64,000 nucleotides of DNA from an uncultured bacterium (GCA_913020665.1 CAJVZI010000003.1:6122-70121), one strand, 5' to 3'. Shown: positions 18,421-36,175, numbered from the stretch's first letter. The notes: generated by a model not told the origin, from the sequence alone. A program made the numbers and translations.

Positions 18421-19122
18421 ATGTTTAGTGATATTATAAATGTTGTGATCTCACTTCCTAGCCAGCATGTGCTCTTTGGTATGATAAGTACTGTTCTTTG
18501 CATCGCTGCAGCATGGGTCTACAGCAATAGTTCTAGTAGAGTCAAACAGGTCATTTTAATGACAATTGGATACCTTGTAATATTTAATGAGATCGTTTTT
18601 CAGGTCTACATGATCTATTATGGCATTTGGTCTTTAAAGACCTCATTACCTATGGAAATGTGTTATTTGTCAGCGTTATTAATACCAGTATATGCAAAAA
18701 ATCAACATATTAGACTGTTAAAGACCTGGTTCTTTTTTGCTGGGTTTGGTGGCTCCCTTTTTGCATTTATAAATACAAATCTCTCTGAGATGGAACACAT
18801 ATACGTATCCATCCATTATTTTTTTGCGCATGGCCTCGTCATTTTTGTAATGTTAAGTATCGTTGTAGATGGATACAGGCCTATGTGGAAAGACTATTTT
18901 ATTGCTATTCAATGGACAACGGTACTTGTTGTTTTTATCATTCTGGTCAATTTGACCCTTGATAGTAATTATATGTTCACCTTTGAAAAACCTGAAGGGG
19001 TTAATTTCACTTTACTTATGCCTGGTTGGCCATATTACTTTTTGATCATGCTTTGCATTGGTCTTGTTTTCTATACATTGATGATGGTAGGCTCTGTTGC
19101 TATAACAAAACGTAATAAATAA
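18421..19122 (+). CDS. multi-pass integral membrane protein of unknown function (possibly YwaF/TIGR02206-like)
   Basis: About 7 hydrophobic segments are visible. The family assignment rests only on size and topology, so it is weak. Confidence 0.5.
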   Translation: MFSDIINVVISLPSQHVLFGMISTVLCIAAAWVYSNSSSRVKQVILMTIGYLVIFNEIVFQVYMIYYGIWSLKTSLPMEMCYLSALLIPVYAKNQHIRLLKTWFFFAGFGGSLFAFINTNLSEMEHIYVSIHYFFAHGLVIFVMLSIVVDGYRPMWKDYFIAIQWTTVLVVFIILVNLTLDSNYMFTFEKPEGVNFTLLMPGWPYYFLIMLCIGLVFYTLMMVGSVAITKRNK

Positions 19123-19138
19123 CGCCCATAACGCCTAT
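19121..19138 (+). promoter_or_regulatory. tandem 9-mer site a (AACGCCCAT AACGCCTAT), candidate operator upstream of the 10-gene lipid operon
   Basis: This is a degenerate copy of the AACGCTCAT x2 motif. It sits 51 nt before the ATG at 19190 and 6 nt upstream of a TTGTAT -35-like hexamer. Confidence 0.45.
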
Positions 19139-19189
19139 TTTATATTGTATTTGAATTATATTTAAAATAAACTAAACATAGACGAAATT

Positions 19190-19711
19190 ATGAAAACTAT
19201 AGTTAATGTTCTTGGATTCAAGTTGAGCTGGTGGGCGTGTGTCCTTGGTGCTGTAAATGGACTGAAGTATCTCGGTCCTGTCGCAATGCTCATATTCTTG
19301 ATCCTTCACTTATATCTAAACTCTACAAACAGATCTGAGCTAAAGCTCATAATCATTTTTGCTTTTGTTGGAACGATCATAGATACTTTGATGGCTTATT
19401 CAAATTTAATTGGATATGTTGGCCTTTATAGTGAGGATATAATCATCGCTCCCTTGTGGATAACTGCTATGTGGTGCGGTTTCTCTGCATTGGTAAATCA
19501 TTCACTTGCATGGCTAAAAGATAAGTGGTCATTGGCATTTCTGTTTGGAGCTATTGGTGGTCCATTAGCATATATAGGAGGAGAAAAACTCGGAGCCATC
19601 TATTTTTATGGAGGTCTTTTCGAGATCTTGGTCATGCTTGGAATAGTCTGGGGAGCAAGCATTCCATTTATGTATTGGGTCAATGACAGACTGGGTCTTG
19701 GAAATAAATGA
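19190..19711 (+). CDS. DUF2878-family small membrane protein
   Basis: It is a four-to-five-TM protein of about 170 aa. Its position at the head of a DUF1365/CFA-synthase cluster matches the usual DUF2878 context. Confidence 0.55.
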   Translation: MKTIVNVLGFKLSWWACVLGAVNGLKYLGPVAMLIFLILHLYLNSTNRSELKLIIIFAFVGTIIDTLMAYSNLIGYVGLYSEDIIIAPLWITAMWCGFSALVNHSLAWLKDKWSLAFLFGAIGGPLAYIGGEKLGAIYFYGGLFEILVMLGIVWGASIPFMYWVNDRLGLGNK

Positions 19712-20415
19712 TCAGATCAATCCAAAAATATAAAATTTTGATATTGATCTTGATATCTAGTTATGGAAATGCTGAAATAAAAGATAACAGGACCGAAGAA
19801 TTATTAAAGACACTCTATAATAATGAAGGTTGGGTTGTTGATAATATTAAAGAGGGCATTTCATTAAGCAGGAAAACAATTGAAAATATGGAACTAACGG
19901 CACTGATGGTAAGACAGAAAATAATGATACCTAAAGAGATCGTACAGAGTGTTATAATGGATGTGAATAACTATGAAAATTTTCTAAATAATAAAGGGCT
20001 TATTTCAAAGGTGATAAATAGGGGTATAAATTGGGTAGATGGCTATCAGTATATTCCTATTGATATTCCGATGATCGCTGATCGTGAATATCTATTTCGA
20101 ATGTATCCTGATGGCCATAATAAAGAGGACACTACCTCCATCATTCATTGGTATTTGCTAAATAAAAAACAGGATGTATTAGTTGAATTGGATGAGAGGC
20201 TAAAAGATGCGGTCTATTTAGATCATGGCGCTGGGCTATGGGTTGCAGAAGAGATCGAGAAAGATACCATAATTTTATCCTATAGAATATATATGGATCC
20301 TGGAGGTTCATTGCCAGATCTATTGATCGATATAATGAACAAGGTCAGCGTTGTGAATGTATTTAAAGATGCTGTCACTGAAGCCCAAAATAGATATAAT
20401 CTAACTATTCAATAA
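19708..20415 (+). CDS. START/SRPBCC lipid-binding domain protein (secreted)
   Basis: It has a signal peptide and START-like spacing (ALMVRQKI ... VMDVNNYENF ... ADREYLFRMY ... YRIYMDPGGSLP). It overlaps the upstream gene through an ATGA. Confidence 0.55.
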   Translation: MIRSIQKYKILILILISSYGNAEIKDNRTEELLKTLYNNEGWVVDNIKEGISLSRKTIENMELTALMVRQKIMIPKEIVQSVIMDVNNYENFLNNKGLISKVINRGINWVDGYQYIPIDIPMIADREYLFRMYPDGHNKEDTTSIIHWYLLNKKQDVLVELDERLKDAVYLDHGAGLWVAEEIEKDTIILSYRIYMDPGGSLPDLLIDIMNKVSVVNVFKDAVTEAQNRYNLTIQ

Positions 20416-20427
20416 TTATATTATATT

Positions 20428-20973
20428 TTGCGATATTTGATTCTTCATATCTTTTTCTTGGTCTCCTTATTAATTATAGGTTGTAATAACAATTTAGATA
20501 AAAGTGAATTATCAGAAATGAAGACAGTTGATTATGTAGATATAGAGCGATTTATGGGTGATTGGTATGTGATCGCTAATATCCCTACTTTTATTGAAAA
20601 AGGAGCAACCAATGCTATAGAGTCATATAAACTTGGTGATAAAGGGGTTATAGAAACAACTTTCACATTTTATCAGGACTCACCCGATGGAGAAAAAAAA
20701 GTTTATAGACCCAAAGGGTTCATATATAATACAGAGACCAACGCTGAATGGAGGATGCAATTTATTTGGCCATTCAAAATGCCATTTTTGATAATCGATC
20801 TAGATGATAATTATCAATTTACTGTTATTGGTTACCCATCTAGGAAGTATGTATGGATCATGGCGCGGGAACCAAAACTATCTGATGAAGTATATGAGGG
20901 TATTTTATCCAATCTTGCTGAAGTCGGGTATGATATATCTCAGATAAATAAAATACTGCAGCAATGGAATTAA
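20428..20973 (+). CDS. blc: bacterial lipocalin (Blc-like outer-membrane lipoprotein)
   Basis: It has a lipobox (LLIIGC), the lipocalin motif FMGDWYVIANIP and a later VIGYPSRKYVWIMAR segment. The start codon is TTG. Confidence 0.8.
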   Translation: MRYLILHIFFLVSLLIIGCNNNLDKSELSEMKTVDYVDIERFMGDWYVIANIPTFIEKGATNAIESYKLGDKGVIETTFTFYQDSPDGEKKVYRPKGFIYNTETNAEWRMQFIWPFKMPFLIIDLDDNYQFTVIGYPSRKYVWIMAREPKLSDEVYEGILSNLAEVGYDISQINKILQQWN

Positions 20974-20982
20974 TATCATAAA

Positions 20983-22233
20983 ATGAAGATCGCAATAATC
21001 GGCTCAGGTATCTCTGGGCTTACTGCAGGATATTTGCTTAGCAGGAACCATGATGTTACAATGTTTGAAAAGAACAATTATATAGGGGGCCATACACATA
21101 CTCATGATATTGAGTATGAAGGAAAAAATTGGGCAGTTGACTCTGGATTTATTGTATATAATGAATGGACCTATCCAAATTTTATTAAACTTCTTGACCA
21201 ACTTGATGTTGAACGTCAAGTAACTAGAATGGGTTTTAGCGTGAAATCTGAGAGTGAAGATCTCGAATATGCTGGACACTCCTTGAATGGACTTTTTGCT
21301 CAAAGGTCCAATCTTATAAGGCCATCTTTTTTAAAGATGTTGTATAATATGAAACGTTTTAACCAAGAGGCCAGAAAAGATCTCGCGGCCATTGATCCTC
21401 AAACAACATTAGGTGAGTATTTATTATCTAATAACTATTCTAATGAATTTATTCAACATTATATAATTCCAATCGGAGCTGCGATCTGGTCAACCGTGCC
21501 TAATAATATGATGAATATTCCTGCTGTTTTCTTCATTAGGTTTTTTGAGAATCACGGCCTATTGCAGATCGTTGATAGACCTGCATGGTGGGTCATAAAG
21601 GGGGGGTCAAAAACATATGTTGAAAAGATCACCTCTGGTTTCAAAGATAGTATAAGGCTTTCGACACCGGTGAAAAATGTGAAACGAGAAAAGGACTCTA
21701 TTATAGTACACTTTGGAAGCGAAGGAGAAAATACAGAAAGCTTTGATGCTATAGTTTTCGCTACACACAGTGACCAGTCCCTTGAAATCTTAGAGCAGCC
21801 AACAAAAGATGAAGAAGAGATACTTGGTGCCATAGAATACCAAAATAATAGTGCGATATTGCACTTCGATGAATCTATCCTTCCCAAAAGAAAAAATGCC
21901 TGGTCCAGCTGGAATTATTTACTTGATCAAGATCAAAATAAGCCTGTGGCTTTAACATACAATATGAATATTTTGCAAGGTCTCACTTGCTCACGAACTT
22001 TCTGTGTAACGTTGAATAGTCAAGATCTGGTTGACCCTGAGAAGGTCATTAAATATCTTAATTATGAACACCCACTCTTCACCGTGCCAAGTATAAATGC
22101 GCAGAAACAAAAACATAAGATCAATGGAGAAAACAACACCTATTATTGCGGAGCATATTGGCGCAATGGATTCCATGAAGATGGGGTGGTCAGTGCGCTG
22201 GATGTATGCAGTCATTTTGGAGAGACATTATGA
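20983..22233 (+). CDS. FAD-dependent oxidoreductase (amine-oxidase / phytoene-desaturase-like fold)
   Basis: The N-terminus has the dinucleotide-binding motif KIAIIGSGISGLTAGYLL ... FEKNNYIGGH. The C-terminal YCGAYWRNGFHEDG segment is typical of the cfa-cluster oxidoreductases. Confidence 0.85.
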   Translation: MKIAIIGSGISGLTAGYLLSRNHDVTMFEKNNYIGGHTHTHDIEYEGKNWAVDSGFIVYNEWTYPNFIKLLDQLDVERQVTRMGFSVKSESEDLEYAGHSLNGLFAQRSNLIRPSFLKMLYNMKRFNQEARKDLAAIDPQTTLGEYLLSNNYSNEFIQHYIIPIGAAIWSTVPNNMMNIPAVFFIRFFENHGLLQIVDRPAWWVIKGGSKTYVEKITSGFKDSIRLSTPVKNVKREKDSIIVHFGSEGENTESFDAIVFATHSDQSLEILEQPTKDEEEILGAIEYQNNSAILHFDESILPKRKNAWSSWNYLLDQDQNKPVALTYNMNILQGLTCSRTFCVTLNSQDLVDPEKVIKYLNYEHPLFTVPSINAQKQKHKINGENNTYYCGAYWRNGFHEDGVVSALDVCSHFGETL

Positions 22234-23012
22234 GTGTGTCTAATAAGAGTTTCATTTTTAGAGGGACTATCCGCCATAGACGTTTTACTCCATTTGATCA
22301 TTTTTTTACCTACCCTTTATTCATGATATATGTTGATCTAAATACGATCAAGGAAACTATCAAACGCTCATGGATGTGGAATATTGACAAACCAGCTATG
22401 ATCTCATTTAATAGAAATGACTATCATGGTGCAGGAAATGGTGATCTTGATTCGGCTGTTCGTAAGACCATATATAAACAAACTGGACATGAGGTTAAAG
22501 GGCCTATACGATTACTCACCCATTTAAGATATTTTGGATATTGTTTTAATCCAGTGAGTTTTTATTATTGTTTTAATGAAAGTGATACAGAGGTCGAACT
22601 GATCATGGCAGAAGTAACAAATACCCCATGGGATGAACGACATTCTTATGTAATAGATAAAAAAGCTAAAAAAGGAAAAGTGGATAATCTTGCAGCGGAT
22701 CTTAAAAAGAAATTACATGTTAGTCCATTTTGGGGGATGGATCATGAATATGAATGGCTTTTTAGTCAACCCAAAAAGAATTTAATGGTCAATATGATCA
22801 ATTATAAAGATGAAGAAAAGGTATTTGATGCCACATTGAATATGAAAAGGATACCATTTACCTTAGGAAACCTACTGAAACAGGTCGCAAGATTTCCATT
22901 TATCACCTTATTGGTTGTCTTTCGAATTCACTGGCAAGCATTTAAACTCTGGCTCAAAAAAGCGCCATATTTTATACATCCTGATAAGATCAAACTAATG
23001 AAAGGCAATTAA
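22230..23012 (+). CDS. DUF1365-family protein
   Basis: It carries GTIRHRRFTPFDHFFTYPLFMIYVDL and RLLTHLRYFGYCFNPVSFYYC, both characteristic of DUF1365. I chose the ATG at 22230, which forms an ATGA overlap with the upstream stop. The track start at 22206 is less likely. Confidence 0.75.
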   Translation: MSVSNKSFIFRGTIRHRRFTPFDHFFTYPLFMIYVDLNTIKETIKRSWMWNIDKPAMISFNRNDYHGAGNGDLDSAVRKTIYKQTGHEVKGPIRLLTHLRYFGYCFNPVSFYYCFNESDTEVELIMAEVTNTPWDERHSYVIDKKAKKGKVDNLAADLKKKLHVSPFWGMDHEYEWLFSQPKKNLMVNMINYKDEEKVFDATLNMKRIPFTLGNLLKQVARFPFITLLVVFRIHWQAFKLWLKKAPYFIHPDKIKLMKGN

Positions 23013-23016
23013 ATAT

Positions 23017-24288
23017 ATGAGTACAACGATGCAAGTAGATCATCTTGCGGATGGGGTCAAGACACATAAAAGATCCAGCTTCCTCATCTCTATATTCAAA
23101 AGTGGACTATTAAAGAAATTCCAAGGTCTAAGAACGGGGAACATACTAGTTTATGATGGGAACGATGAATTTTCTTTTGGAGATGATGGGTCAGATGAAA
23201 AAGTAGTTGTGAATATCCATTCGCAGGAATTCTATGTTATGGTTGGAAGCGGCGGAGCTTTAGGCCTTGCGGAGGCTTATATGGCAGGGTTCTGGTCTTC
23301 GGATAATGTGGTAAAGCTCTTTCAAATAATCTTAAGGAATAGGGATATCCTACTATCTCTTGAAAGAGGTTTTGCTAAACTTATTAAACCGATAAATAAA
23401 ATGATCCACCGTAGTAGACAAAATACACTTCAAGGCAGCAAAAAGAATATTGTAGCACATTATGATCTTAGTAATGATTTTTATAAGCTTTGGCTTGATC
23501 CAACAATGACATATTCTTGTGCATTTTTTAAGGATGAATCAGTAACCCTTGAAGAAGCATCCAAAGAAAAGTTGGATCGAATATGCAGAAAATTAAATTT
23601 ATCGGAGCAGGATTCTGTTCTGGAGATAGGTACAGGTTGGGGTAGCTTTTCAATTCATGCCGCAAAAAATTATGGTTGCAATGTTACCACTACAACCATA
23701 TCTGATGCTCAGTATGAATATGCAAGCTCTCGAATAAAAGAGGAGGGATTAGAATCAAAAATAACTCTCATTAATAAAGACTATCGTGAGTTGGATGGTA
23801 AATATGATAAGATTGTTTCAATAGAGATGATCGAAGCGGTTGGATACGAGTATATCTCAGGATTTTTCTCAAAATTATCATCTTTATTAAAAAGTAATGG
23901 ATTCATTGCGCTGCAGGGTATTACATACAATGATCAAAATTTTGATGTCTATAAAGATTCAGTAGATTTTATAAAAAAATACATATTTCCAGGTTCATGT
24001 TTAATCTCTATTTCGCAGATCACTGAAGTGATAAAAAAAGATACAGATCTTGCGATGATAGATATGGAAGATATTACAAAGCACTATGCCATAACCTTGA
24101 ATAGATGGAGGAAAAATTTTATTGATGTACTCCCTAAGGTAAAAGAGATGGGATATTCTCAAGCATTTATTAATATGTGGGAGTTTTACTTTTTATATTG
24201 TGAGGCTGGTTTTCTAGAAAGGAATATTGGAGATGTCCAATTGGTCTTTGCAAAATCTGGCACCAGAGATATAAATATTAATTATTAA
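23017..24288 (+). CDS. cyclopropane-fatty-acyl-phospholipid synthase family SAM-dependent methyltransferase (long form)
   Basis: It shows HYDLSNDFYKLWLDPTMTYSCAFF, the SAM motif VLEIGTGWGSF and a C-terminal WEFYFLYCEAGF segment. Confidence 0.9.
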   Translation: MSTTMQVDHLADGVKTHKRSSFLISIFKSGLLKKFQGLRTGNILVYDGNDEFSFGDDGSDEKVVVNIHSQEFYVMVGSGGALGLAEAYMAGFWSSDNVVKLFQIILRNRDILLSLERGFAKLIKPINKMIHRSRQNTLQGSKKNIVAHYDLSNDFYKLWLDPTMTYSCAFFKDESVTLEEASKEKLDRICRKLNLSEQDSVLEIGTGWGSFSIHAAKNYGCNVTTTTISDAQYEYASSRIKEEGLESKITLINKDYRELDGKYDKIVSIEMIEAVGYEYISGFFSKLSSLLKSNGFIALQGITYNDQNFDVYKDSVDFIKKYIFPGSCLISISQITEVIKKDTDLAMIDMEDITKHYAITLNRWRKNFIDVLPKVKEMGYSQAFINMWEFYFLYCEAGFLERNIGDVQLVFAKSGTRDININY

Positions 24289-24291
24289 CAT

Positions 24292-25326: not shown

Positions 25327-25334
25327 ATCAATCT

Positions 25335-26051: not shown

Positions 26052-26057
26052 AGAATA

Positions 26058-26939: not shown

Positions 26940-26949
26940 GAGATATGGA

Positions 26950-27525: not shown

Positions 27526-27529
27526 TAAT

Positions 27530-28571: not shown

Positions 28572-28581
28572 TATATAATAT

Positions 28582-28606: not shown

Positions 28607-28634
28607 TTGACATTGATTATATGGGCATTATAAT
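28607..28634 (+). promoter_or_regulatory. sigma-70-type promoter (TTGACA, 16-nt spacer, TATAAT) for the 28658-31035 operon
   Basis: A perfect -35 lies at 28607-28612 and a perfect -10 at 28629-28634, 23 nt before the ATG at 28658. Confidence 0.55.
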
Positions 28635-29241: not shown

Positions 29242-29417
29242 CTAGCGTTGATGTAATTACAAATGATAACTACTGCATTATTTCATCATTTATAGAAGAT
29301 GCTGAACAGCTAGTTATTAAAGTTCAAGAATTAACAGCTGATGGTTGGGCGGTATCAGGTGGAATAGCGTCTTCAAGTAGCAAGCTTTTTCAAGCGATGA
29401 CCCGTAAAACAATATGA
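29238..29417 (+). CDS. unlisted 59-aa ORF, DUF1737-like small protein
   Basis: It translates to MTSVDVITNDNYCIISSFIEDAEQLVIKVQELTADGWAVSGGIASSSSKLFQAMTRKTI. It has ATGA overlaps at both ends (29238-29241 and 29414-29417). It falls just below the 60-aa cutoff of the ORF track. Confidence 0.5.
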   Translation: MTSVDVITNDNYCIISSFIEDAEQLVIKVQELTADGWAVSGGIASSSSKLFQAMTRKTI

Positions 29418-30109: not shown

Positions 30110-30118
30110 GAGTAAACA

Positions 30119-30442
30119 ATGAAAAAACCAGCCTTAAGAGAAAAAAGATCAAAATCAAAAGTTTTTAACGAAACGAACTGGACCAAGTCATCAAAGACTG
30201 TGGGACAGTATATTTTTAGGCGTTTATCATTAGATCAGTCAGATAAGGAACTTTCCAGAATAAGACCACGTCATTGCCAAAGTCAATTAATTGTCTCAAG
30301 CAAAGAAATTGATATGTATGTCAGTGACTACCTTAATATGGTTGATAGAAAGAAAAAAGAATCAACACGTCAAAATGGTAATTGGTCAAAAGCAAGATCA
30401 TCAACTAATGGAAAACAAAGCAACGTTATAGCTCGCTGTTAA
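30119..30442 (+). CDS. hypothetical Lys/Arg/Ser-rich basic protein
   Basis: It is an ORF within a tight operon. I recognise no family. Confidence 0.4.
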   Translation: MKKPALREKRSKSKVFNETNWTKSSKTVGQYIFRRLSLDQSDKELSRIRPRHCQSQLIVSSKEIDMYVSDYLNMVDRKKKESTRQNGNWSKARSSTNGKQSNVIARC

Positions 30443-30444
30443 TT

Positions 30445-31035
30445 ATGTTAATTAGATCATGGAGGAAAAAGATAATGGTAGGAATTCTAGTAACAGCAGT
30501 ATCAGGGCTTGCATCAGCCATGTTTAGTAAGAGCTCAATATCAGCAGAGCCTGGAGCTAGGTCTAGTAGTTCATTTTATGATATTAGCCTGCCAGACATA
30601 AATAACGAGCAAATACAACTTGATAAATTTAAAGGTAAAAAACTACTTATTGTGAATGTCGCATCCCGTTGCGGTTACACTTCTCAGTACAAAAAGCTAC
30701 AAGAGCTATATGAGAGACACGGTGATAAATTGGAGATAATTGCAGTACCCTGTAATGATTTTGGATATCAAGAGCCTGGTTCCGCTGAACAGATCAAAAA
30801 CTTTTGTGATATTAATTATGGCGTAACATTTTCAATCGCATCAAAACAAAAGATCAAATCGTCGCCCCAAAGTGAGATCTACAACTGGCTTTCAGATCCT
30901 AAATTAAATGGATGGAATGATCAGCTCCCTTCCTGGAACTTTTGTAAGTACTTAATAAGTGAGCAAGGTGAGCTTATGCATTTCTACAGGAGCAGTGTCG
31001 ATCCGATGAGTGAAGAGATTTTAAGTATTCTATAA
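30445..31035 (+). CDS. glutathione peroxidase (Cys-type), membrane-anchored or secreted
   Basis: It shows the GPx signatures LLIVNVASRCGYTSQY and IIAVPCNDFGYQEPGS, plus WNFCKYLI. Confidence 0.9.
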   Translation: MLIRSWRKKIMVGILVTAVSGLASAMFSKSSISAEPGARSSSSFYDISLPDINNEQIQLDKFKGKKLLIVNVASRCGYTSQYKKLQELYERHGDKLEIIAVPCNDFGYQEPGSAEQIKNFCDINYGVTFSIASKQKIKSSPQSEIYNWLSDPKLNGWNDQLPSWNFCKYLISEQGELMHFYRSSVDPMSEEILSIL

Positions 31036-31107: not shown

Positions 31108-32592
31108 ATGAAGGCCGTATTCATATATCCCAACCAGTTGTTTGAGAATCATCCATCTTTATCAAGGAGTAGAAAGATATTCTTGGTGCAAGACCCTCTA
31201 TTTTTTTCTGATAAACAATATCCAGTGGCATTTCACAAAAAGAAAATACTTTTACATTTCCTATCAATGGATGATTACAGAGATAATCTGGTGGATAGAG
31301 GATATGATGTTGAAGTCATTGCGTTCAATAGATTGCAAACAAAAGATCATACGCAGAAGATCATTAAAGAATATGAACTGTCAGAGATACATATTGCTGA
31401 TGTTGTAGACTATACTCTTGAAAAAAGAATCAAAGATGCAGCTTCTAAATTAAATGTAAGGCTATATTGGTATAACTCACCGATGTTCTTGCTCAACAAG
31501 GATGAAGTAGAAAATGATTTTAGAAAAAAGAATTTTCACTTTATGTCCAACTTCTACAAAAAACAAAGACGCAGGTACAATCTATTGATGGATGATGAAG
31601 GTAAACCGGAAGGAGGGAAATGGAGTTTTGATTTAGAAAATAGAAAAAAATTACCAAAGGGCATTCAAATTCCAGCAATAACAAAATTTGAGTACAACAA
31701 TAATAAAATTTTACGTGGAAATAGATTTATTAATAAATATTTTAAAAATAATATAGGGACTTCCAAAGATTTCAACTATCCTGTAAATCACAAACAAAGC
31801 AGGTTTGCATTTGATCAGTTTTTAGAGCATAAATTTCAATTATTTGGTCCTTATGAAGATGCTATATCTAAGCACAACCATAGCTTATTTCACTCAATAT
31901 TAACTCCATATCTTAATATTGGATTAATTACACCTAAGGAAATAATACAGAAAGTTATGGACTTCTCAGGTCTTAACTCTATACCATTGAATTCTATCGA
32001 GGGGTTTCTTAGGCAGATAATAGGATGGCGTGAGTTCATTAGGGGTGTATATACTGTGGATGGCGTAAAACAAAGAACGAGGAACTATTGGGGTTTTACA
32101 AAGGCTATTCCAAAAACATTTTATGATGGAACAACAGGTCTTGAACCCCTAGACAATTCTATTTCTCGTTGCTTGAAACATGGATATGCACATCATATCG
32201 AGAGACTGATGATCTTAGGTAATATTATGATACTCTCTCGCTTTGATCCAGACTCTGTATATCAATGGTTTATGGAATTTTTTATTGATGCTTATGATTG
32301 GGTTATGGTACCAAATATTTATGGGATGAGTCAATTTGCTGATGGCGGTTTAATGTCTACAAAGCCATACATAAGTGGAAGTAATTACATATTAAAAATG
32401 AGCGACTATAAAAAGGGTAGGTGGTCAGGTGTCTGGGATGCTCTATATTGGGAATTTATCAATTCAAATAGAGAATTCTTTTTGAAAAACCATAGAATGG
32501 CAATGATGGTATCAATGTATGATAAAAAACCAAAAAATATTAGATCAGAGTATTCATTTATCTATAAAGATTATCAATTAATGATTAGTTAA
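31108..32592 (+). CDS. cryptochrome/photolyase-family protein of the COG3046 / prokaryotic (6-4)-photolyase (CryB/PhrB) type
   Basis: It shows IGWREFIRGVY, GYAHHIERLMILGN, FIDAYDWVMVPNIYGMSQFADGG and KPYISGSNYILKMSDY. Confidence 0.8.
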   Translation: MKAVFIYPNQLFENHPSLSRSRKIFLVQDPLFFSDKQYPVAFHKKKILLHFLSMDDYRDNLVDRGYDVEVIAFNRLQTKDHTQKIIKEYELSEIHIADVVDYTLEKRIKDAASKLNVRLYWYNSPMFLLNKDEVENDFRKKNFHFMSNFYKKQRRRYNLLMDDEGKPEGGKWSFDLENRKKLPKGIQIPAITKFEYNNNKILRGNRFINKYFKNNIGTSKDFNYPVNHKQSRFAFDQFLEHKFQLFGPYEDAISKHNHSLFHSILTPYLNIGLITPKEIIQKVMDFSGLNSIPLNSIEGFLRQIIGWREFIRGVYTVDGVKQRTRNYWGFTKAIPKTFYDGTTGLEPLDNSISRCLKHGYAHHIERLMILGNIMILSRFDPDSVYQWFMEFFIDAYDWVMVPNIYGMSQFADGGLMSTKPYISGSNYILKMSDYKKGRWSGVWDALYWEFINSNREFFLKNHRMAMMVSMYDKKPKNIRSEYSFIYKDYQLMIS

Positions 32593-32639: not shown

Positions 32640-32657
32640 TTGAGCGTAATAAGCGTT
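32640..32657 (-). promoter_or_regulatory. tandem 9-mer site e, reverse orientation (AACGCTTAT TACGCTCAA on the minus strand)
   Basis: This is a degenerate copy of the same motif, within the 203-bp non-coding gap. Confidence 0.35.
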
Positions 32658-32719
32658 ATTAAGACTGTAAAATTAAATATTTAAAGAATTAGGTTTACTT
32701 TATAACATCATATATAAGG

Positions 32720-32753
32720 GTCCCTGTGACTAAGTGGTGAGAGTCACAGGGAC
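32720..32753. other. perfect 12-bp stem / 10-nt loop hairpin (GTCCCTGTGACT ... AGTCACAGGGAC)
   Basis: It is a GC-rich perfect inverted repeat in an AT-rich gap. Neither side has a clean U-tract. Confidence 0.5.
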
Positions 32754-32795
32754 TAAAATAGTTCAAACAAATTTTATTACGATTACTTATATAAA

Positions 32796-33188
32796 ATGAC
32801 TTACAAAAACATTTACTGGTATTTTTGCATACTCATTTTTGTTCTAGGCCAGCCATTATTATTTATTGATTTTAATACAGGGGCGTCCATTTTCCTTGGT
32901 ATGCTCGCACCAGCAATTATGAGCTATATAAATATTCAATTAATTGAAAGATTGAGTAAAGAAAAGGGAAACCTAATGGCATTTGGTTTCAATATGATGC
33001 AATTTATCGTCAAATCTATATTTTTGTGTTCTCTTACATATTTAGGAGTCAAGATCATTAAACTTGATTTTAGGATTTTTGTACCTCTCCTTTGTTTAAC
33101 ATGGTTTGTTTTTCATTTGATCGAGGCATTCTTTACAAATAGCCTGATTAAGAAAAGCATAATAAATAGCGTAAAAACTGAATTGTGA
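32796..33188 (+). CDS. small four-TM membrane protein, unknown function
   Basis: It is a hydrophobic 130-aa ORF lying between motif sites e and d. Confidence 0.5.
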   Translation: MTYKNIYWYFCILIFVLGQPLLFIDFNTGASIFLGMLAPAIMSYINIQLIERLSKEKGNLMAFGFNMMQFIVKSIFLCSLTYLGVKIIKLDFRIFVPLLCLTWFVFHLIEAFFTNSLIKKSIINSVKTEL

Positions 33189-33211
33189 TATAAATGTATT
33201 ATTAATAATAT

Positions 33212-33229
33212 AATGCTCAAAACGCTCAT
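33212..33229 (+). promoter_or_regulatory. tandem 9-mer site d (AATGCTCAA AACGCTCAT), candidate auto-regulatory operator
   Basis: It sits 41 nt before the ATG of the MerR-like regulator gene. Confidence 0.4.
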
Positions 33230-33270: not shown

Positions 33271-34155
33271 ATGAGATACCTCAGTTCTAAAGATGTCGCA
33301 GAAATACTAGGCATAAACATCTCAACTCTCAAACGCTGGACAGACAGTGGTGTATTGGAGTGTTCTAAAACAGCAGGTGGGCATAGGAAGTTCACTATGC
33401 AACATATTCGTAATTTCTATAAAAACAAGGGTGCCTCTGGAAGAAATAGTAATCTTGGTCTTGAAAATATCCAACATAAGAAAGTATATGATCTAATTAA
33501 CAAAAAAGATTTTAGTGGGCTTGCAAGAATACTAGCAGATGCCAGCTTGGAATCGGATGAGTTAAGTGTCAACACGGTCATAAATGGTGCTTATATGAAG
33601 GGAATCAACGTAGAGCTTATCTGTGATGAAATAGTTGAGCCTGCAAGTATGATAGTTGAGAACGCTCTTAGGCAAGGATACCTAAGTCATGTTGAAACAT
33701 TTATAAGTAGGAAAATGATGACACGTGTAGTAGAGGGTCTCAACCAAAATAAACCTAACGGTTCATTCAATGGTAAGACCGCTCTCTGTGTCAACTTTGA
33801 AGATAATTTACCTGACCTAGGTGTGGTTATGTCAGAAGTCGTACTTAGACATAATGGATATAATGTACTCAATACTGGATCTCATGCGGACCTTGGGAAT
33901 CTTCAAACAGTGATTGAAAAGAAGAGAGTCGACCTGGTTCTATTCTTTCTTTGTGATATGCAATGTTGTATGGCAACAGTAAAAGATAATCTAGAAAAAA
34001 CAGAAATAAAGACAAAAGAAATTACTGAATTAGCTAGGGAGCAAGGCGTTAAGGTATTGTTTGGTGGAACAGGCCTGCAGTTTTTACCAAGTGTTATCAA
34101 TTCAACAGATGCCACTTTTATAAAATATTCCGATCTCAAACAGATCATAGTTTAA
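33271..34155 (+). CDS. MerR-family HTH regulator fused to a B12-binding-like (helical bundle + Rossmann) domain; CarH/LitR-like architecture
   Basis: The N-terminus is a MerR/excisionase-type HTH (YLSSKDVAEILGINISTLKRWTDSGVL). The C-terminal GKTALCVNFEDNLPDLGVVMSEVVLRHNGYNVLNTG ... VDLVLFF segment follows the cobalamin-binding Rossmann pattern. Confidence 0.7.
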   Translation: MRYLSSKDVAEILGINISTLKRWTDSGVLECSKTAGGHRKFTMQHIRNFYKNKGASGRNSNLGLENIQHKKVYDLINKKDFSGLARILADASLESDELSVNTVINGAYMKGINVELICDEIVEPASMIVENALRQGYLSHVETFISRKMMTRVVEGLNQNKPNGSFNGKTALCVNFEDNLPDLGVVMSEVVLRHNGYNVLNTGSHADLGNLQTVIEKKRVDLVLFFLCDMQCCMATVKDNLEKTEIKTKEITELAREQGVKVLFGGTGLQFLPSVINSTDATFIKYSDLKQIIV

Positions 34156-34183
34156 CTTATATTAATCTACCTTTGTACTCCGT

Positions 34184-35524
34184 ATGATCGATCCAAGTAG
34201 GATTCGTACTCTCAAAGCTGGTGCGTTTGGTGGGAAAGCTGTCCTCTATTGGATGATCAGAGACAAGAGAGTATCAGATAATTGGTCTTTGCTTGTAGCG
34301 CAACAGATCGCTATAAAAAATAAGGTACCCCTAATTGTTTGCTTCCAATTTATCGGGAATTTCCCGGACTCAAACATCAGACAAAATGGATTTTTATTTA
34401 AAGGGCTATTAGAAACACGACATACATTACAAAAATTGAATATTGAGTTTTTATTTTTACAAGGTAGGCCTGAAAAAGTAATTAATCAACTAATTGAAAA
34501 GAGGTCTATTGGTACGGTCGTCGTTGATCATAATCCTTTAAATGTTTACCGTAAGAGAATAAAAAGGGTGATTGGTAAAACGGATATCCCGTTTTACCAA
34601 GTAGATGCTCACAACATTGTTCCATGCTGGAAAGCATCCGGCAAAAAAGAGTATGCGGCATATACAATAAGGCCAAAGATCAAAAATAATTTGAAGAGAT
34701 ATCTAACGGATATACCTCAGGTTATTAGACATCCTTATGGTACTTCACAAATGAAAGATCTATCACTAAATAGCCTTTTAAGTGGTATTGTCCAAGATAG
34801 CACAGTTAAAGAAGTCGATTGGGTCAATCCTGGTGAAATAGCTGCAAAAGATATCTTGAACAAATTAAAGACTACATTAAAAGGTTATAGCTCTAATCGA
34901 AATGATCCAACAAAAGCAGCATTAAGTGATTTAAGCCCCTATTTTCATTTTGGTCATATTGCTCCACAAAGAGTTGCATGGGAGATACATAAATCAAAAT
35001 TGCAAAAAGAGGACAAGGATGCATTTCTTGAAGAGATGATCATACGGCGCGAATTATCTGATAACTTTTGTGAATATGAACCAGAATATGATCAATTTGA
35101 AGGGTTCCATGCCTGGTCACAAAAAACATTAAATGAACACCGTAATGATGAAAGAGAATATATTTATCCATTAGGTCAATTTGAAGCTGCGGAAACTCAT
35201 GATGATTTGTGGAATGCAGCCCAGAATGAGATGAAAATTACTGGAAAAATGCATGGTTATATGCGTATGTATTGGGCAAAGAAAATATTAGAATGGACCC
35301 CATCACCTGAGATCGCTCAACAGATTGCTATCGATTTGAATGATAAATACGAGTTAGATGGAAGAGACCCCAATGGATATACAGGTATTGCTTGGAGCAT
35401 AGGTGGGATACATGACAGGGCTTGGTTTGAAAGGCCTATATTTGGCAAGATAAGATATATGAATTATAATGGATGTAAATCTAAGTTTGATGTCATGAAA
35501 TATATTGAAATGCATAACTCATAA
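34184..35524 (+). CDS. phr: class II CPD deoxyribodipyrimidine photolyase
   Basis: The N-terminus is class II-specific (IRTLKAGAFGGKAVLYWMIRDKRVSDNWSLL). The C-terminus shows GKMHGYMRMYWAKKILEW and DGRDPNGYTGIAWSIGGIHDRAW. Confidence 0.9.
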   Translation: MIDPSRIRTLKAGAFGGKAVLYWMIRDKRVSDNWSLLVAQQIAIKNKVPLIVCFQFIGNFPDSNIRQNGFLFKGLLETRHTLQKLNIEFLFLQGRPEKVINQLIEKRSIGTVVVDHNPLNVYRKRIKRVIGKTDIPFYQVDAHNIVPCWKASGKKEYAAYTIRPKIKNNLKRYLTDIPQVIRHPYGTSQMKDLSLNSLLSGIVQDSTVKEVDWVNPGEIAAKDILNKLKTTLKGYSSNRNDPTKAALSDLSPYFHFGHIAPQRVAWEIHKSKLQKEDKDAFLEEMIIRRELSDNFCEYEPEYDQFEGFHAWSQKTLNEHRNDEREYIYPLGQFEAAETHDDLWNAAQNEMKITGKMHGYMRMYWAKKILEWTPSPEIAQQIAIDLNDKYELDGRDPNGYTGIAWSIGGIHDRAWFERPIFGKIRYMNYNGCKSKFDVMKYIEMHNS

Positions 35525-35548
35525 AATGTCCAAATTGCAAAATACCTA

Positions 35549-36175
35549 ATGAATGATGAAGATCGATCACAGTTTTGGGAAGACATTTATCTAGCTGACG
35601 ATACAGGGTGGGATCTCAGTGGTCCTACACCTGTGTACGTAGACCTAATATCTAAATTGAAAAAAGGGGATGTTTGTATCATCGGCTGCGGTAGAGGATA
35701 CGATGCGGTCATGTTTGCAAAAAAAGGTTTTCATGTGACAGCAGTAGATTTTGCACCATCAGCGATCCAAGCTCTTAAGGAAATGGTAGCAGAGTCAAAA
35801 GTAGAGGTCAATGCCCTTCAGTTAGATATTTTCAGTCTGTTACCATCCTATCAAAATTCATTTGATTATGTAATTGAGCAGACCTGTTTTTGCGCTATAC
35901 ATCCAAGCCGTCGAAAAGAATATGAGATCCTAGTGCGAGGTCTTCTGAAAACGAACGGTAAATTAGTTGGTCTATGGTTTCCTCTTGATAAGCATATTGA
36001 TGAGGGAGGACCTCCCTATGGCACCACTGTGAATGAGGTAAAATCAATTTTCAATGATGGTTGGGAGGTTGTGAAAGAAGAATTTTCTGAGTATTCTATA
36101 AAGCCAAGGAAGGATAGAGAGAAATTGATCATATTTAAAAAAACAACTAATATTGATAAAGATCAAAATTTGTAA
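35549..36175 (+). CDS. TPMT-family (thiopurine/halide-thiol) SAM-dependent methyltransferase
   Basis: It shows FWEDIYLADDTGWDL and CIIGCGRGYDAVMFAKKGFHVTAVDFAPSAI. Confidence 0.75.
   Translation: MNDEDRSQFWEDIYLADDTGWDLSGPTPVYVDLISKLKKGDVCIIGCGRGYDAVMFAKKGFHVTAVDFAPSAIQALKEMVAESKVEVNALQLDIFSLLPSYQNSFDYVIEQTCFCAIHPSRRKEYEILVRGLLKTNGKLVGLWFPLDKHIDEGGPPYGTTVNEVKSIFNDGWEVVKEEFSEYSIKPRKDREKLIIFKKTTNIDKDQNL

What the first reader, a model, noticed from the sequence alone, without database searches (positions are those of the whole stretch)
19121..36175. A roughly 17-kb photo-oxidative-damage island joins lipid remodelling, ROS detoxification and DNA photorepair with its own candidate light regulator
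All genes in this stretch are co-directional and packed, many with ATGA overlaps. It contains four groups:
- A 10-gene lipid-modification operon.
- A small SRPBCC-like/lipoprotein pair.
- A six-gene operon: zinc ribbon, VOC, DUF1737-like, SDR, a basic protein and glutathione peroxidase.
- A CryB/PhrB-type photolyase-family gene, a MerR/B12-binding-like regulator, a class II CPD photolyase and a TPMT-like methyltransferase.

In alphaproteobacteria, similar gene sets belong to the singlet-oxygen (RpoE-ChrR) regulon. Here I see no ECF sigma or anti-sigma pair. Instead, a CarH/LitR-like gene and a recurring tandem-repeat motif sit at the operon heads. This suggests the same functional module has been rewired under a different, photoreceptor-type controller.
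Basis: partly seen in the sequence, partly recalled or inferred. Interest (0 to 1): 0.7.

Follow-up and report, generated by a model that had tools for sequence, protein, structure and literature searches.

The report
B12-free LitR-type light-stress regulon in SAR406
A conserved 17-kb gene cluster of an uncultured marine bacterium (SAR406/Marinimicrobia) for membrane-lipid protection, peroxide removal and DNA photorepair shares one repeated DNA control site, and its own regulator is a relative of vitamin-B12 light sensors that has lost every B12-binding residue.

Summary
Window 19119-36175 is a packed, co-directional cluster. Most family calls are confirmed: a UfaD/UfaO/CFA-synthase-type lipid operon, an SDR, a glutathione peroxidase, a CryB/PhrB-type protein, a class II CPD photolyase and a TPMT-like methyltransferase. 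The SRPBCC-like and DUF1737-like calls had no HMM support, and the VOC call is sub-threshold.

The "recurring motif" is real. It is a tandem 9-bp direct repeat, (A/T)AACGCTC x2, found five times in 64 kb against 0.01 expected, and only at operon heads. It is conserved at orthologous heads in diverged SAR406 genomes. In 47 of 72 compiled sites a sigma-70-like -35 follows exactly one repeat unit downstream.

The regulator (33271-34155) is a homologue of the AdoCbl photoreceptors CtMerR and CarH. It has a BldC-type wHTH and a B12-domain fold. All four AdoCbl signature elements are replaced, and a conserved Cys/His insertion has been gained. Sister Marinimicrobia keep a canonical B12-type paralogue that uses the same operator on orthologous genes, and one contig carries both paralogues.

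The cluster is under LitR/CarH-family control and has no ECF pair. But LitR control of photolyase and fatty-acid genes is already known in Pseudomonas, and a MerR-like blue-light regulator sits beside phr in Vibrio. This regulator is probably not itself a B12 photoreceptor. I rate it a new variant of a known kind.

The parts
19119..19138 (+). Operator site 1 (ATAACGCCCATAACGCCTAT, degenerate) at the head of the lipid operon. It overlaps the stop codon of the TMEM164-family gene.
   Evidence: Orthologous heads in other SAR406 contigs carry perfect copies after TMEM164 and before DUF2878 (L017, L070, L110, L120). L004 has a degenerate copy.
19190..27525 (+). Ten-gene lipid-modification operon, in order: DUF2878, 235-aa unknown, lipocalin, UfaD-like amine oxidase (20983-22233), UfaO-like DUF1365 (22206-23012), CMAS 423 aa, CMAS-like 344 aa, fatty-acid desaturase, DUF1295, SOUL.
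   Evidence: Pfam. NCBIfam gives a family-level CFA-synthase match. UfaD (FAD/NAD-binding, phytoene-desaturase-like) and UfaO (DUF1365) make furan fatty acids in Rhodobacter (PMC7380195). Synteny is kept in L001-L004, L127 and L128.
27528..27547 (+). Operator site 2 (perfect). It is followed by CTTGAA (-35-like), which overlaps an inverted single unit AAGCGTT at 27558-27564.
   Evidence: Conserved in L001, L004, L127, L094, L117 and L054.
27608..28571 (+). Two-gene unit: a 163-aa protein with a WxHxH motif (no family hit) and a 161-aa lipoprotein.
   Evidence: no Pfam hit. There is only a weak local similarity (E 6e-5) to the 167-aa protein that follows the regulator or photolyase in other lineages. 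The N-terminus, read from the translation, looks like a lipobox (LILFVFAC).
28580..28599 (+). Operator site 3 (perfect).
   Evidence: Conserved before the zinc-ribbon gene in L001-L003, L128, L009, L024, L046, L054, L056, L096 and L117.
28607..28634 (+). Consensus sigma-70-type promoter TTGACA-16-TATAAT. It starts one 9-bp unit after the second repeat.
   Evidence: the only 12/12 match in the 20 kb scanned. The same geometry is seen in orthologues.
28658..31035 (+). Six-gene operon: 93-aa CxxC...CxxC protein, weak VOC/glyoxalase-like protein, 59-aa acidic protein, SDR, 107-aa basic protein, glutathione peroxidase.
   Evidence: All six are called as genes in L001-L003. The operon is wholly or partly absent in L127, L128 and L046.
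31108..32592 (+). CryB/PhrB-family (FeS-BCP/CryPro) photolyase-related gene lacking the four [4Fe-4S] cysteines.
   Evidence: No operator lies upstream, so it is probably read through from the preceding operon (inference).
32640..32659 (-). Operator site 5 in inverted orientation (ATAACGCTTATTACGCTCAA on the - strand). It lies just downstream of a possible TTGATT-17-GTAAAT promoter at 32611-32639.
   Evidence: A degenerate inverted copy occupies the same place in L001. The promoter assignment is my reading of the sequence.
32719..32754 (.). 13-bp-stem hairpin between the DPRP gene and the 130-aa membrane-protein gene.
   Evidence: dG -23.1 kcal/mol. It is conserved in L001 with a compensatory A:T to G:C change. 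No Rfam match. Function unknown.
32796..33188 (+). 130-aa membrane protein with no family hit.
   Evidence: Present in L001, L003, L046 and L128; absent in L002 and L127.
33210..33229 (+). Operator site 4, upstream of the regulator gene (candidate autoregulation). A -10-like TATATT ends 6 nt before the ATG, which suggests a leaderless mRNA.
   Evidence: Conserved before the regulator in L001-L003, L046, L073, L077, L106, L127 and L128. The leaderless reading is an inference from aligned promoters.
33271..34155 (+). Regulator: BldC/excisionase-type wHTH plus a B12-binding-domain fold without the AdoCbl ligands ('type B').
34184..35524 (+). Class II CPD photolyase.
   Evidence: It follows the regulator in every type-B locus examined.
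35549..36175 (+). TPMT-family methyltransferase.

Best explanation
The cluster is the local regulon of a LitR/CarH-family transcription factor of Marinimicrobia (SAR406).

**DNA binding (inferred from family and sequence).** The regulator's BldC-type winged helix binds head-to-tail to 9-bp direct repeats, (A/T)AACGCTC. Two strong repeats are followed by an A/T-rich pseudo-repeat that ends in C. The next unit is the -35 hexamer of a sigma-70-type promoter.

**Action (inferred).** An oligomer held together by the C-terminal B12-domain-like module therefore covers or abuts the -35. It most likely represses at least four transcription units and its own gene in the dark or unstressed state. Those units are the furan/cyclopropane-type lipid operon, the 163-aa/lipoprotein pair, the Zn-ribbon-to-glutathione-peroxidase operon (probably reading into the CryB-like gene), and the regulator-photolyase-TPMT operon. 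A fifth, inverted site just downstream of a candidate promoter may additionally control the 130-aa membrane-protein gene.

**Signal (inferred, not identified).** Derepression would follow light or photo-oxidative stress. Unlike its ancestors, this 'type B' protein cannot use adenosylcobalamin in the known way. The Trp and Glu-His that contact the upper ligand, the lower-ligand His (now Pro) and the GxxxP loop are all replaced. The loops that line the former B12 pocket carry an invariant set of new residues: C173, H205, C228, C232 and C233, plus the nearly invariant H140. The signal is therefore read either by a different cofactor or thiol switch in that remodelled pocket, or through a partner protein.

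**What is shown:** the gene families, the operator, its fixed geometry, its conservation, its co-occurrence with this regulator family, and the loss of the B12 signature.

**What is inferred:** which protein binds the operator, repression rather than activation, and the nature of the signal.
For: **The operator is real and sits at fixed geometry**
- It gives 5 hits against 0.01 expected, all at operon heads.
- In a compilation of 72 distinct sites from related loci, TTG begins 7-9 nt after the 19-mer in 47 sites, and at exactly 8 nt in 32.
- The best promoter match in the island follows site 3 directly.

**Phylogenetic footprint**
- The same sites occur at orthologous heads where regulators are 64-86% identical and the flanking intergenic DNA has diverged.

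**Link between operator and regulator family**
- A metagenome scan used the motif alone as bait. It returned contigs encoding regulator homologues of 25-72% identity, with the motif in their own upstream or divergent region (L008, L011, L035, L050, L073, L077, L106, L114).
- The other genes behind the motif are photolyase/cryptochrome genes, lycopene cyclase, a DoxX-like gene and island genes; at L114 crtI-crtB lie divergent from the regulator gene across the motif-bearing intergenic region.

**DNA-binding domain**
- The best NCBIfam match is HTH_BldC (E 1.4e-8, below cut-off). The PDB search matches BldC 6ama.
- Each BldC protomer binds a 9-bp direct repeat AATTxxxx(C) head-to-tail (PMC5859096). 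That is the same period and the same layout as ATAA-CGCT-C.

**Sensor domain**
- Sequence E-value 3e-24 to CtMerR 8JBS.
- The AF2 model has pLDDT 82 and a TM-score of 0.80 to the 8JBS CBD, followed by TtCarH.
- CtMerR and CarH are dark-state tetramers that fall apart in light (PMC11796333).
- CarH operators are tandem direct repeats overlapping -35 or -10 (PMC9304148).

**Loss of the B12 signature**
- GxxW becomes ENAL, EH becomes TF, GxxH becomes DNLP and GxxxP becomes GSHAD.
- P181, C173, C228, C232, C233 and H205 are invariant in 30 homologues of 64-86% identity.

**Replacement series**
- Marinimicrobia contigs with only a canonical paralogue (L129, L130) have the same operator before orthologous genes: the DUF2878/DUF1295/SOUL genes, the regulator, and the 167-aa gene.
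- L106 has both paralogues side by side. L073, L077 and the window lineage have only type B.
Against: - No binding, expression or light-response data exist for this phylum.
- Two strong repeats centred near -53 is also a classic activator position. The regulon promoters other than site 3 are only moderate matches to consensus.
- Only 64 kb of this genome is seen, so a canonical B12-type paralogue elsewhere in it cannot be excluded. That paralogue could be the true light sensor.
- The CryB-like gene, the most obvious candidate partner, is missing next to the regulator in L046, L127 and L128.
- No 3D coordinates were available, so clustering of the conserved Cys/His in the pocket is inferred from alignment to B12-contacting loops only.
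Many hits were unrelated: phage-like contigs, simple 9-mer arrays and high-GC contigs.
Confidence: 0.6

Rival explanations
1. The regulator is an activator. Bound at about -62 to -44, it recruits RNA polymerase to the target promoters when it senses light or oxidative stress.
For: - The operator sits at a fixed distance upstream of -35 rather than between -35 and -10.
- Most -35 elements are imperfect (TTGnnn).
- The V. cholerae MerR-like regulator was reported to act as 'suppressor or enhancer' (PMC5241685).
Against: - All characterised CarH/LitR proteins, including class II PmlR2, are repressors (PMC9758184, PMC9304148).
- The zinc-ribbon promoter is a perfect TTGACA-16-TATAAT that should not need an activator.
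- The pseudo-repeat and the 9-bp register put a further binding unit on the -35.
- The inverted site 5 lies downstream of a candidate promoter.
Confidence: 0.22
2. The regulator is still a corrinoid (B12) photoreceptor. It would bind cobalamin in a non-canonical way, for example base-on or with another His such as H205 or H140.
For: - The full B12-domain fold is kept.
- The GG motif and the Thr of SxT are retained.
- New invariant His residues sit in pocket loops.
- Its closest relatives are proven AdoCbl sensors (PMC11796333).
Against: - All four signature elements used to recognise light-responsive CBDs are substituted.
- In the SignatureFinder study, a CBD protein without the signature bound neither AdoCbl nor MeCbl.
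- The Pfam B12-binding match is below threshold, and the CarH equivalog model scores 27 against a cut-off of 400.
- An 8-residue Cys-rich insertion replaces the SxL/T region.
Confidence: 0.1
3. The operator is read by another protein, for example a canonical B12-type paralogue encoded elsewhere in the genome. The type-B protein would be an accessory or competing factor, like CarA beside CarH in Myxococcus.
For: - L106 encodes both paralogues 1.4 kb apart.
- Canonical paralogues in Marinimicrobia use the same operator.
- CarA/CarH is a precedent (PMC9304148).
Against: - L073, L077, L001-L003, L046, L127 and L128 show type B alone in the locus where L106 has both. In L073 the slot of the canonical gene is empty.
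- The recognition-helix region is nearly identical between the types, so type B should bind the same DNA.
- The operator precedes the type-B gene itself in every lineage.
Confidence: 0.12
4. The repeat is not regulatory. It would be a chance or structural repeat, such as a REP-like or terminator-associated element, that happens to sit between operons.
For: - Every site lies just after the stop codon of the preceding gene.
- The same 19-mer also occurs in unrelated metagenomic contigs, including simple 9-mer arrays (L115, L058).
Against: - Shuffles give 0.01 matches.
- The distance to -35 is fixed.
- The repeat stays conserved while its flanks diverge.
- It co-occurs with one regulator family down to 25% identity.
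- It is a direct repeat, so it forms no hairpin.
Confidence: 0.03

Closest known systems
CtMerR of Chloracidobacterium thermophilum (PDB 8JBS/8JBT), an AdoCbl-dependent MerR-family photoreceptor
   Same: - It is the best sequence match (E 3e-24 over residues 5-268) and the best structural match (TM 0.80).
- Both have an HTH_17/BldC-like DNA-binding domain rather than the CarH RxWERRY type.
- Both have a four-helix bundle plus a Rossmann module.
   Different: - Its GxxW, EH, GxxH and GxxxP elements all contact AdoCbl. In the window protein every one is replaced.
- The window protein has an 8-residue LCDMQCC insertion.
- No operator is given for CtMerR in the passages I read, which mention only an 'alternative DNA-binding site'. 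Here an operator is predicted for the family.
CarH / class I LitR (Thermus, Bacillus, Myxococcus)
   Same: - A repressor with a B12-domain fold.
- Operators made of tandem direct repeats that reach the -35.
- Autoregulated, and linked to photoprotective genes (PMC9304148).
   Different: - The repeats are 11 bp (nnnnTnnACAn) rather than 9 bp.
- Wx9EH and the His ligand are present in CarH and absent here.
- The NCBIfam CarH model scores 27 bits against a cut-off of 400.
CarA of Myxococcus xanthus and class II LitR (PplR1/PmlR2 of Pseudomonas)
   Same: - Both are B12-independent members of the family that still repress light-inducible genes.
- The P. putida class II regulon includes phrB, ufaM, folE and cryB, a very similar functional set.
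- Their signal comes from a partner: the CarS antirepressor, or a short LOV protein (PMC9304148, PMC9758184).
   Different: - CarA keeps the classic B12 motif.
- Class II keeps only the helix bundle, and its operator is TGTACA-N12-TGTACA.
- The window protein keeps the whole fold without the ligands and uses a different operator.
- No LOV-type or CarS-like family was detected in the island, although seven of its proteins have no family assignment.
RpoE-ChrR singlet-oxygen regulon (Rhodobacter, Vibrio, Shewanella)
   Same: The target functions match: a UfaD/UfaO/CFA-synthase-type operon with an SDR, a glutathione peroxidase and photolyase (PMC7380195, PMC5241685, PMC4336711).
   Different: It is controlled by an ECF sigma factor and a zinc anti-sigma factor. 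None is present here, and the target promoters are sigma-70-like.
AppA SCHIC domain with CryB (Rhodobacter sphaeroides)
   Same: - A B12-binding-like domain that no longer uses cobalamin: it binds heme and is redox-tuned by a Cys-rich region.
- That domain is bound by a CryB-type cryptochrome.
- AppA SCHIC is among the Foldseek matches (PMC3760249, PMC3401432).
   Different: - AppA has no DNA-binding domain and acts as an antirepressor of PpsR.
- Its heme His lies in the His loop, which here carries Pro.
- The analogy is a lead only.

Membership tests
CarH / class I LitR (AdoCbl photoreceptor-repressor) | N-terminal MerR-type winged-helix DNA-binding domain | tested here: met
   HTH_17 38 bits, MerR_1 37 bits. 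The subtype is BldC/excisionase-like, not the CarH RxWERRY type.
CarH / class I LitR (AdoCbl photoreceptor-repressor) | C-terminal four-helix bundle plus Rossmann B12-binding fold | tested here: met
   AF2 model with pLDDT 82. Foldseek gives TM 0.80 to the 8JBS CBD and 0.7-0.78 to TtCarH CBDs.
CarH / class I LitR (AdoCbl photoreceptor-repressor) | Wx9EH motif contacting the 5'-deoxyadenosyl group | tested here: not met
   The aligned residues are L133 and T143-F144, and they are conserved as such in 30 homologues.
CarH / class I LitR (AdoCbl photoreceptor-repressor) | D/ExHxxG ... SxT/V ... GG motif with His as the lower axial ligand | tested here: not met
   N179-L180-P181-D182-L183-G184, with invariant Pro in place of His. 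The Ser is replaced and an 8-residue insertion lies before MAT. GG is kept.
CarH / class I LitR (AdoCbl photoreceptor-repressor) | Curated equivalog score (NCBIfam NF052513 TransRegCarH) | tested here: not met
   27.2 bits against a cut-off of 400.
CarH / class I LitR (AdoCbl photoreceptor-repressor) | Light-dependent loss of oligomerisation and of DNA binding | not testable with these tools
   Needs purified protein.
BldC-type wHTH DNA binding | Head-to-tail binding to 9-bp direct repeats with an AT-rich start and C at position 9 | tested here: inconclusive
   The operator has exactly this period and layout. The HTH matches HTH_BldC at E 1.4e-8 but below the cut-off (34 against 77 bits). Binding itself was not tested.
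Class II LitR (Pseudomonas PplR1/PmlR2) | Only the helix-bundle subdomain retained; operator TGTACA-N12-TGTACA; adjacent short LOV partner | tested here: not met
   The Rossmann module is present, the operator is different, and no LOV-type family was detected in the island.
RpoE-ChrR singlet-oxygen regulon | ECF sigma / ChrR anti-sigma pair and ECF-type promoters at target genes | tested here: not met
   No Sigma70_r2/r4 or anti-sigma hits in the island or in ten other small ORFs of the window. Target promoters are TTGnnn-17-TAnnnT. The rest of the genome is unseen.
FeS-BCP / CryPro (PhrB, CryB) | DPRP N-terminal domain and photolyase-like FAD domain | tested here: met
   PF04244 at 173 bits. 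E 2e-77 to 3.7e-71 against 8ijy, 4dja and 3zxs over about 440-480 residues.
FeS-BCP / CryPro (PhrB, CryB) | Four cysteines ligating a [4Fe-4S] cluster (PhrB C350, C438, C441, C454) | tested here: not met
   A 10-residue deletion removes CxxC, and the other two positions are not Cys. The same holds in six orthologues, though the L002 C-terminus is truncated in the alignment.
Class II CPD photolyase | Curated model TIGR00591 (phr2) above cut-off; full-length similarity to solved class II enzymes | tested here: met
   587.5 bits against a cut-off of 550. E 3e-143 to 2xry and 2e-128 to 3umv.
Furan fatty-acid pathway (UfaM/UfaD/UfaO) | Adjacent FAD desaturase (UfaD-like), DUF1365 protein (UfaO) and SAM-dependent fatty-acyl methylase | tested here: met
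   Amino_oxidase, DUF1365 (264 bits) and two CMAS proteins lie in a row. The family definitions come from PMC7380195.
Furan fatty-acid pathway (UfaM/UfaD/UfaO) | Production of methylated furan fatty acids | not testable with these tools
   Needs lipid analysis.

The most novel reading that the evidence does not exclude
The SAR406 'type B' regulator is a new class of LitR/CarH protein. Its former B12 pocket has been rebuilt, with four invariant Cys, an invariant His (H205), a nearly invariant His (H140) and an 8-residue insertion. The rebuilt pocket would hold a non-corrinoid cofactor (heme, Fe-S or another chromophore) or act as a thiol switch.

The protein has replaced a B12-dependent paralogue on an unchanged operator. 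The cryptochrome-like gene that accompanies it in most, but not all, lineages has also shed its Fe-S cluster.

If true, this would be a documented case of a photo-oxidative stress circuit being freed from scarce cofactors (B12, iron) in the oligotrophic surface ocean.
Probability: 0.35. Interest if true: 0.75.

Novelty: new variant of a known kind. Interest (0 to 1): 0.55.

Why it matters
Marinimicrobia (SAR406) are abundant, uncultured ocean bacteria. Their surface clades are known to have gained photolyases and peroxide defences (PMC6143742). In the literature I searched I found no description of how these genes are controlled.

This work gives three things:
- **A testable regulon.** It names a regulator, a 9-bp tandem-repeat operator and about 23 target genes.
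- **A predicted DNA site for the CtMerR-type branch of B12 photoreceptors.** This branch was recognised only recently, and I found no operator reported for it in the passages I read.
- **A natural replacement series.** A B12-dependent sensor only, then both paralogues, then a B12-signature-less paralogue only, all on the same operator.

Such a series is rare material for asking how a sensory domain changes its input while the output wiring stays fixed. It also bears on whether cofactor scarcity (B12, iron) shapes regulatory proteins in the open ocean.

The protein is small and soluble-looking, and the operator is short. Cofactor identification and EMSA are therefore straightforward.

Tried and rejected
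- **Rfam search of the whole window.** Nothing was found, so the hairpin at 32719-32754 and the intergenic regions match no known RNA family or riboswitch.
- **Promoter/terminator scan.** Overall counts equal chance in this AT-rich DNA. Only the perfect promoter after site 3 is informative, and no terminators separate the units.
- **Pfam and NCBIfam on seven proteins.** No family was found for the 235-, 163-, 161-, 93-, 59-, 107- or 130-aa proteins. The SRPBCC and DUF1737 calls could not be confirmed. I ran no further search on them.
- **CryB-like protein as obligate photoreceptor partner of the regulator.** I downgraded this idea. The gene is absent next to the regulator in L046, L127 and L128, and it has no operator of its own.
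- **ECF-type promoter reading of the motif.** I rejected it. The AAC-to-CG spacing within the tandem repeat is too short (my reading of the sequence and of typical ECF promoters), and a sigma-70-type promoter follows at fixed distance.
- **Mobile 'island'.** I rejected this. The flanks (TMEM164 upstream; IMPase-OMT-ThyX downstream) are syntenic across lineages, and no mobility gene families were detected in the island.
- **Literature search for diel or light expression data on SAR406 photolyase genes.** Nothing specific was found.
- **The paper on P. putida class II LitR (PMC7515241).** It is not held in the library. Its content is cited second-hand from PMC9758184.

Full report
**1. What is in the window**

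The window has about 36% G+C. From 19190 to 36175 every substantial ORF lies on the + strand. Junctions range from a 37-nt overlap to a 12-nt gap, and four are ATGA overlaps. Six longer intergenic regions of 67-203 nt break the run.

- DUF2878, Lipocalin_2, Amino_oxidase and DUF1365 (264 bits)
- two CMAS-family methyltransferases
- FA_desaturase, DUF1295 and SOUL
- an SDR and a glutathione peroxidase
- a DPRP-domain photolyase-related protein
- a MerR/HTH_17 protein with a sub-threshold B12-binding match
- a class II photolyase (TIGR00591, 587 bits, cut-off 550; E 3e-143 to PDB 2xry)
- a TPMT-family methyltransferase

Three calls are not confirmed. 'SRPBCC-like' and 'DUF1737-like' had no hit. 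'VOC' scored 17 bits against a cut-off of 20.6.

The adjacent amine-oxidase-type flavoprotein, DUF1365 protein and CFA-synthase-type methylases correspond at family level to UfaD, UfaO and UfaM/RSP1089. These make singlet-oxygen-scavenging furan fatty acids in the RpoE-ChrR regulon of Rhodobacter (PMC7380195).

No ECF sigma or anti-sigma factor is encoded in the island or among ten other small ORFs of the window.

**2. Whose genome**

The closest homologues of the regulator (64-98% identity) come from marine metagenomes. Where named, they belong to 'Candidatus Neomarinimicrobiota', that is Fidelibacterota/Marinimicrobia/SAR406.

Contigs with regulators 64-86% identical show the same gene order and the same flanks: a TMEM164-family gene upstream and inositol monophosphatase, O-methyltransferase and ThyX downstream. 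The cluster is therefore a conserved chromosomal region, not a mobile island.

It is modular, however:
- L127 lacks the six-gene operon, the CryB-like gene and the membrane-protein gene.
- L128 and L046 lack the SDR-to-CryB-like stretch.

In the type-B contigs that span the region, the lipid operon is present and the regulator is always followed directly by the photolyase. TPMT follows in the SAR406 lineages closest to the window.

**3. The motif**

ATAACGCTCATAACGCTCAT with up to 3 mismatches occurs five times, against 0.01 in shuffles. The sites are 19119+, 27528+, 28580+, 33210+ and 32640-. All are intergenic and none lies elsewhere in the 64 kb.

The motif is a tandem direct repeat of a 9-bp unit, (A/T)AACGCTC. 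No copy precedes the CryB-like gene. That gene is probably transcribed from the promoter of the preceding operon (inference).

The sites are conserved at orthologous positions in L001-L004, L127 and L128, while the surrounding intergenic DNA has diverged. The weakest window site, the lipid-operon head, is a perfect copy in other SAR406 contigs (L017, L070, L110, L120).

I compiled 72 distinct sites from related loci. A TTG begins 7-9 nt after the 19-mer in 47 of them, and at exactly 8 nt in 32. This places the -35 one repeat unit after the second repeat. A TAnnnT box follows 16-17 nt later. The only 12/12 sigma-70 match in the 20 kb scanned is the one after site 3 (28607-28634).

The 9 bp between repeat 2 and the -35 are A/T-rich and usually end in C, so they look like a degenerate third unit.

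Before the regulator gene the same geometry puts the -10 box 5-6 nt from the ATG. This suggests a leaderless mRNA (inference).

Site 5 is inverted. It lies just after a possible TTGATT-17-GTAAAT promoter and is followed by a 13-bp-stem hairpin (dG -23 kcal/mol). Both the inverted site and the hairpin recur in L001, the hairpin with a compensatory A:T to G:C change.

**4. Who binds it**

I scanned JGI metagenome contigs with the motif alone (AWAACGCTCAWAACGCTCA). Many were unrelated: phage-like contigs, simple 9-mer arrays and high-G+C DNA.

A large fraction were low-G+C marine contigs in which the motif precedes one of the following:
- island genes
- photolyase/cryptochrome genes (FAD_binding_7)
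- a DoxX-like gene
- lycopene cyclase; at L114, crtI-crtB lie divergent from the regulator gene across the motif-bearing intergenic region

Eleven of these motif-selected contigs encode a homologue of the regulator, or in one case (L048) of its HTH alone. Six of them are only 25-40% identical. In those that encode a full regulator the motif lies in the homologue's own upstream or divergent region.

That co-occurrence, across such distance and with bait that contained no protein information, is the main argument that the repeat is this family's operator.

The N-terminal domain is closest to BldC (NCBIfam HTH_BldC, E 1.4e-8, below cut-off; PDB 6ama). Each BldC protomer binds a 9-bp direct repeat AATTxxxx(C), head-to-tail, in arrays of two to four (PMC5859096). 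The unit found here, ATAA-CGCT-C, has the same period, the same AT-rich start and the same C at position 9. So does the pseudo-repeat.

**5. What kind of regulator**

The protein's best solved relative is CtMerR of Chloracidobacterium (8JBS; E 3e-24 over residues 5-268). CtMerR is an AdoCbl-binding tetramer that monomerises in light, like CarH (PMC11796333).

An AlphaFold model (pLDDT 82) matches the CtMerR B12-binding domain with TM 0.80, then TtCarH.

All four elements that contact AdoCbl in CtMerR are replaced:

| CtMerR element | Window protein |
|---|---|
| GxxW | ENAL |
| EH | TF |
| GxxH (lower ligand His) | DNLP |
| GxxxP | GSHAD |

The SxT region carries an 8-residue insertion, F(F/Y)LC(D/N)MQCC.

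Thirty homologues of 64-86% identity were aligned:
- P181, C173, C228, C232, C233 and H205 are invariant.
- H140 is nearly invariant.

By alignment, these residues all sit in loops that line the B12 pocket of canonical domains. The AF2 model is least confident exactly there, at 205-207 and 234-236. The pocket looks rebuilt rather than decayed (inference).

The NCBIfam CarH equivalog model scores 27 bits against a cut-off of 400.

An exhaustive phmmer search of 1.8 billion representatives found 1635 relatives. Of the 150 best-scoring ones, 102 were full-length:
- 67 have the intact signature.
- Only P0121 and P0122, the shorter P0131 (no insertion) and the intermediate P0132 share the 'Pro-for-His' loop; all but P0131 also carry the LCxxQCC insertion.

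**6. A replacement series**

The distant homologues found through the motif (L008, L011, L035, L050, L114, L106b) keep the upper-ligand signature (GxxW and EH); the four that are full-length (L035, L050, L114, L106b) also keep the His ligand, and all but L114 the GxxxP loop. I call these 'type A' and the window protein 'type B'.

Type A proteins also exist in Marinimicrobia (P0281 is named so). In contigs L129 and L130 a type A gene sits among DUF2878/DUF1295/SOUL genes and a 167-aa/NmrA-like/AhpC group. Operator variants with the same geometry precede the DUF1295/SOUL operon head in both contigs and, in L130, also the regulator and the 167-aa gene.

- **L106** carries VOC-SDR-CryB-like-typeB-photolyase immediately upstream of typeA-167aa-NmrA.
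- **L073 and L077** have the same arrangement without the type A gene.

Within one phylum there are therefore lineages with A only, with A plus B, and with B only. All use the same operator on overlapping targets.

The CryB-like proteins that accompany type B all lack the four Fe-S cysteines of FeS-BCPs.

**7. Mechanism proposed**

- *Shown:* the families, the operator and its geometry, its conservation, its linkage to the regulator family, and the loss of the AdoCbl signature.
- *Inferred from characterised relatives:* an oligomer binds DR1-DR2-pseudo-repeat head-to-tail and occludes the -35, repressing four to five units including its own gene. A light or photo-oxidative signal releases it.
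- *Unknown:* the signal.

I consider a B12-independent input the most likely, at about 0.75. It could be intrinsic (a new cofactor or thiol switch) or arrive via a partner protein. Precedents exist:
- CarA with CarS (PMC9304148)
- class II LitR with a short LOV protein (PMC9758184)
- the heme-binding, B12-like SCHIC domain of AppA, which is itself bound by CryB (PMC3760249, PMC3401432)

The CryB-like neighbour is an attractive partner, but it is missing beside the regulator in three lineages.

**8. Comparison and verdict**

The target set is that of known photo-oxidative regulons. LitR-family control of phr, ufaM and cryB genes is already described for Pseudomonas. A MerR-like gene beside phr is required for the blue-light response in Vibrio. 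The 'rewiring' as a concept is therefore not new.

Four things are new:
- the phylum
- a predicted 9-bp direct-repeat operator for the CtMerR-type branch
- a distinct, well-conserved subclass that keeps the whole B12-domain fold but none of the ligands
- the apparent in-phylum replacement of a B12 sensor by it

I rate this a new variant of a known kind, with interest 0.55.

Noticed in passing
window 31108-32592; L001 7969-9294, L003 8052-9539, L073 1703-3175, L077 2573-4048 (-), L106 1768-3132: The CryB/PhrB-family protein lacks all four cysteines that hold the [4Fe-4S] cluster in FeS-BCPs. A 10-residue deletion removes the CxxC. The same is true of every orthologue found next to a type-B regulator, so this is a conserved Fe-S-free clade.
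   Followed up: partly
window 32719-32754 (and L001 about 9420-9460): A 13-bp-stem hairpin (dG -23 kcal/mol) lies between the CryB-like gene and the 130-aa membrane-protein gene. It is conserved in L001 with a compensatory A:T to G:C change. It has no T-tract and no Rfam match, and its role is unknown.
   Followed up: partly
L106 3156-4037 and 5456-6328: One metagenomic contig encodes both a B12-signature-less (type B) and a canonical (type A) paralogue of the regulator. They are separated only by the class II photolyase gene, and operator copies precede both.
   Followed up: yes
L010, L021, L033, L038, L060, L081, L116 (metagenome contigs): The same 19-mer tandem repeat sits 13-90 nt (about 47 nt in most) upstream of a conserved ORF of about 90 aa, on low-G+C contigs whose genes look phage-like. 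HTH_17 is the excisionase fold, so marine phages may carry a related DNA-binding system, or may borrow the host's light operator.
   Followed up: no
window 18421-19122: A TMEM164-family gene always lies immediately upstream of the lipid-operon head in SAR406 contigs (L004, L070, L110, L120). From memory, this family is known from eukaryotic ether-lipid acyl remodelling. The operator overlaps its stop codon.
   Followed up: no
L130 12820-13239: In a Marinimicrobia contig with only the B12-type regulator and no photolyase nearby, the regulon neighbourhood contains a pyrimidine-dimer DNA glycosylase (Pyr_excise). This is a light-independent UV-repair route.
   Followed up: no
window 27558-27564: A single inverted repeat unit (AAGCGTT) overlaps the -35/spacer of the promoter after operator site 2. 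It is partly conserved in L004, L117 and L127, and could be an extra contact for an oligomeric regulator.
   Followed up: no
window 36184-38103: A sulfatase with an F5/8 type C domain follows the TPMT gene after 8 nt. It is absent at this position in L001 and L003, so it looks like a lineage-specific insertion unrelated to the regulon.
   Followed up: partly
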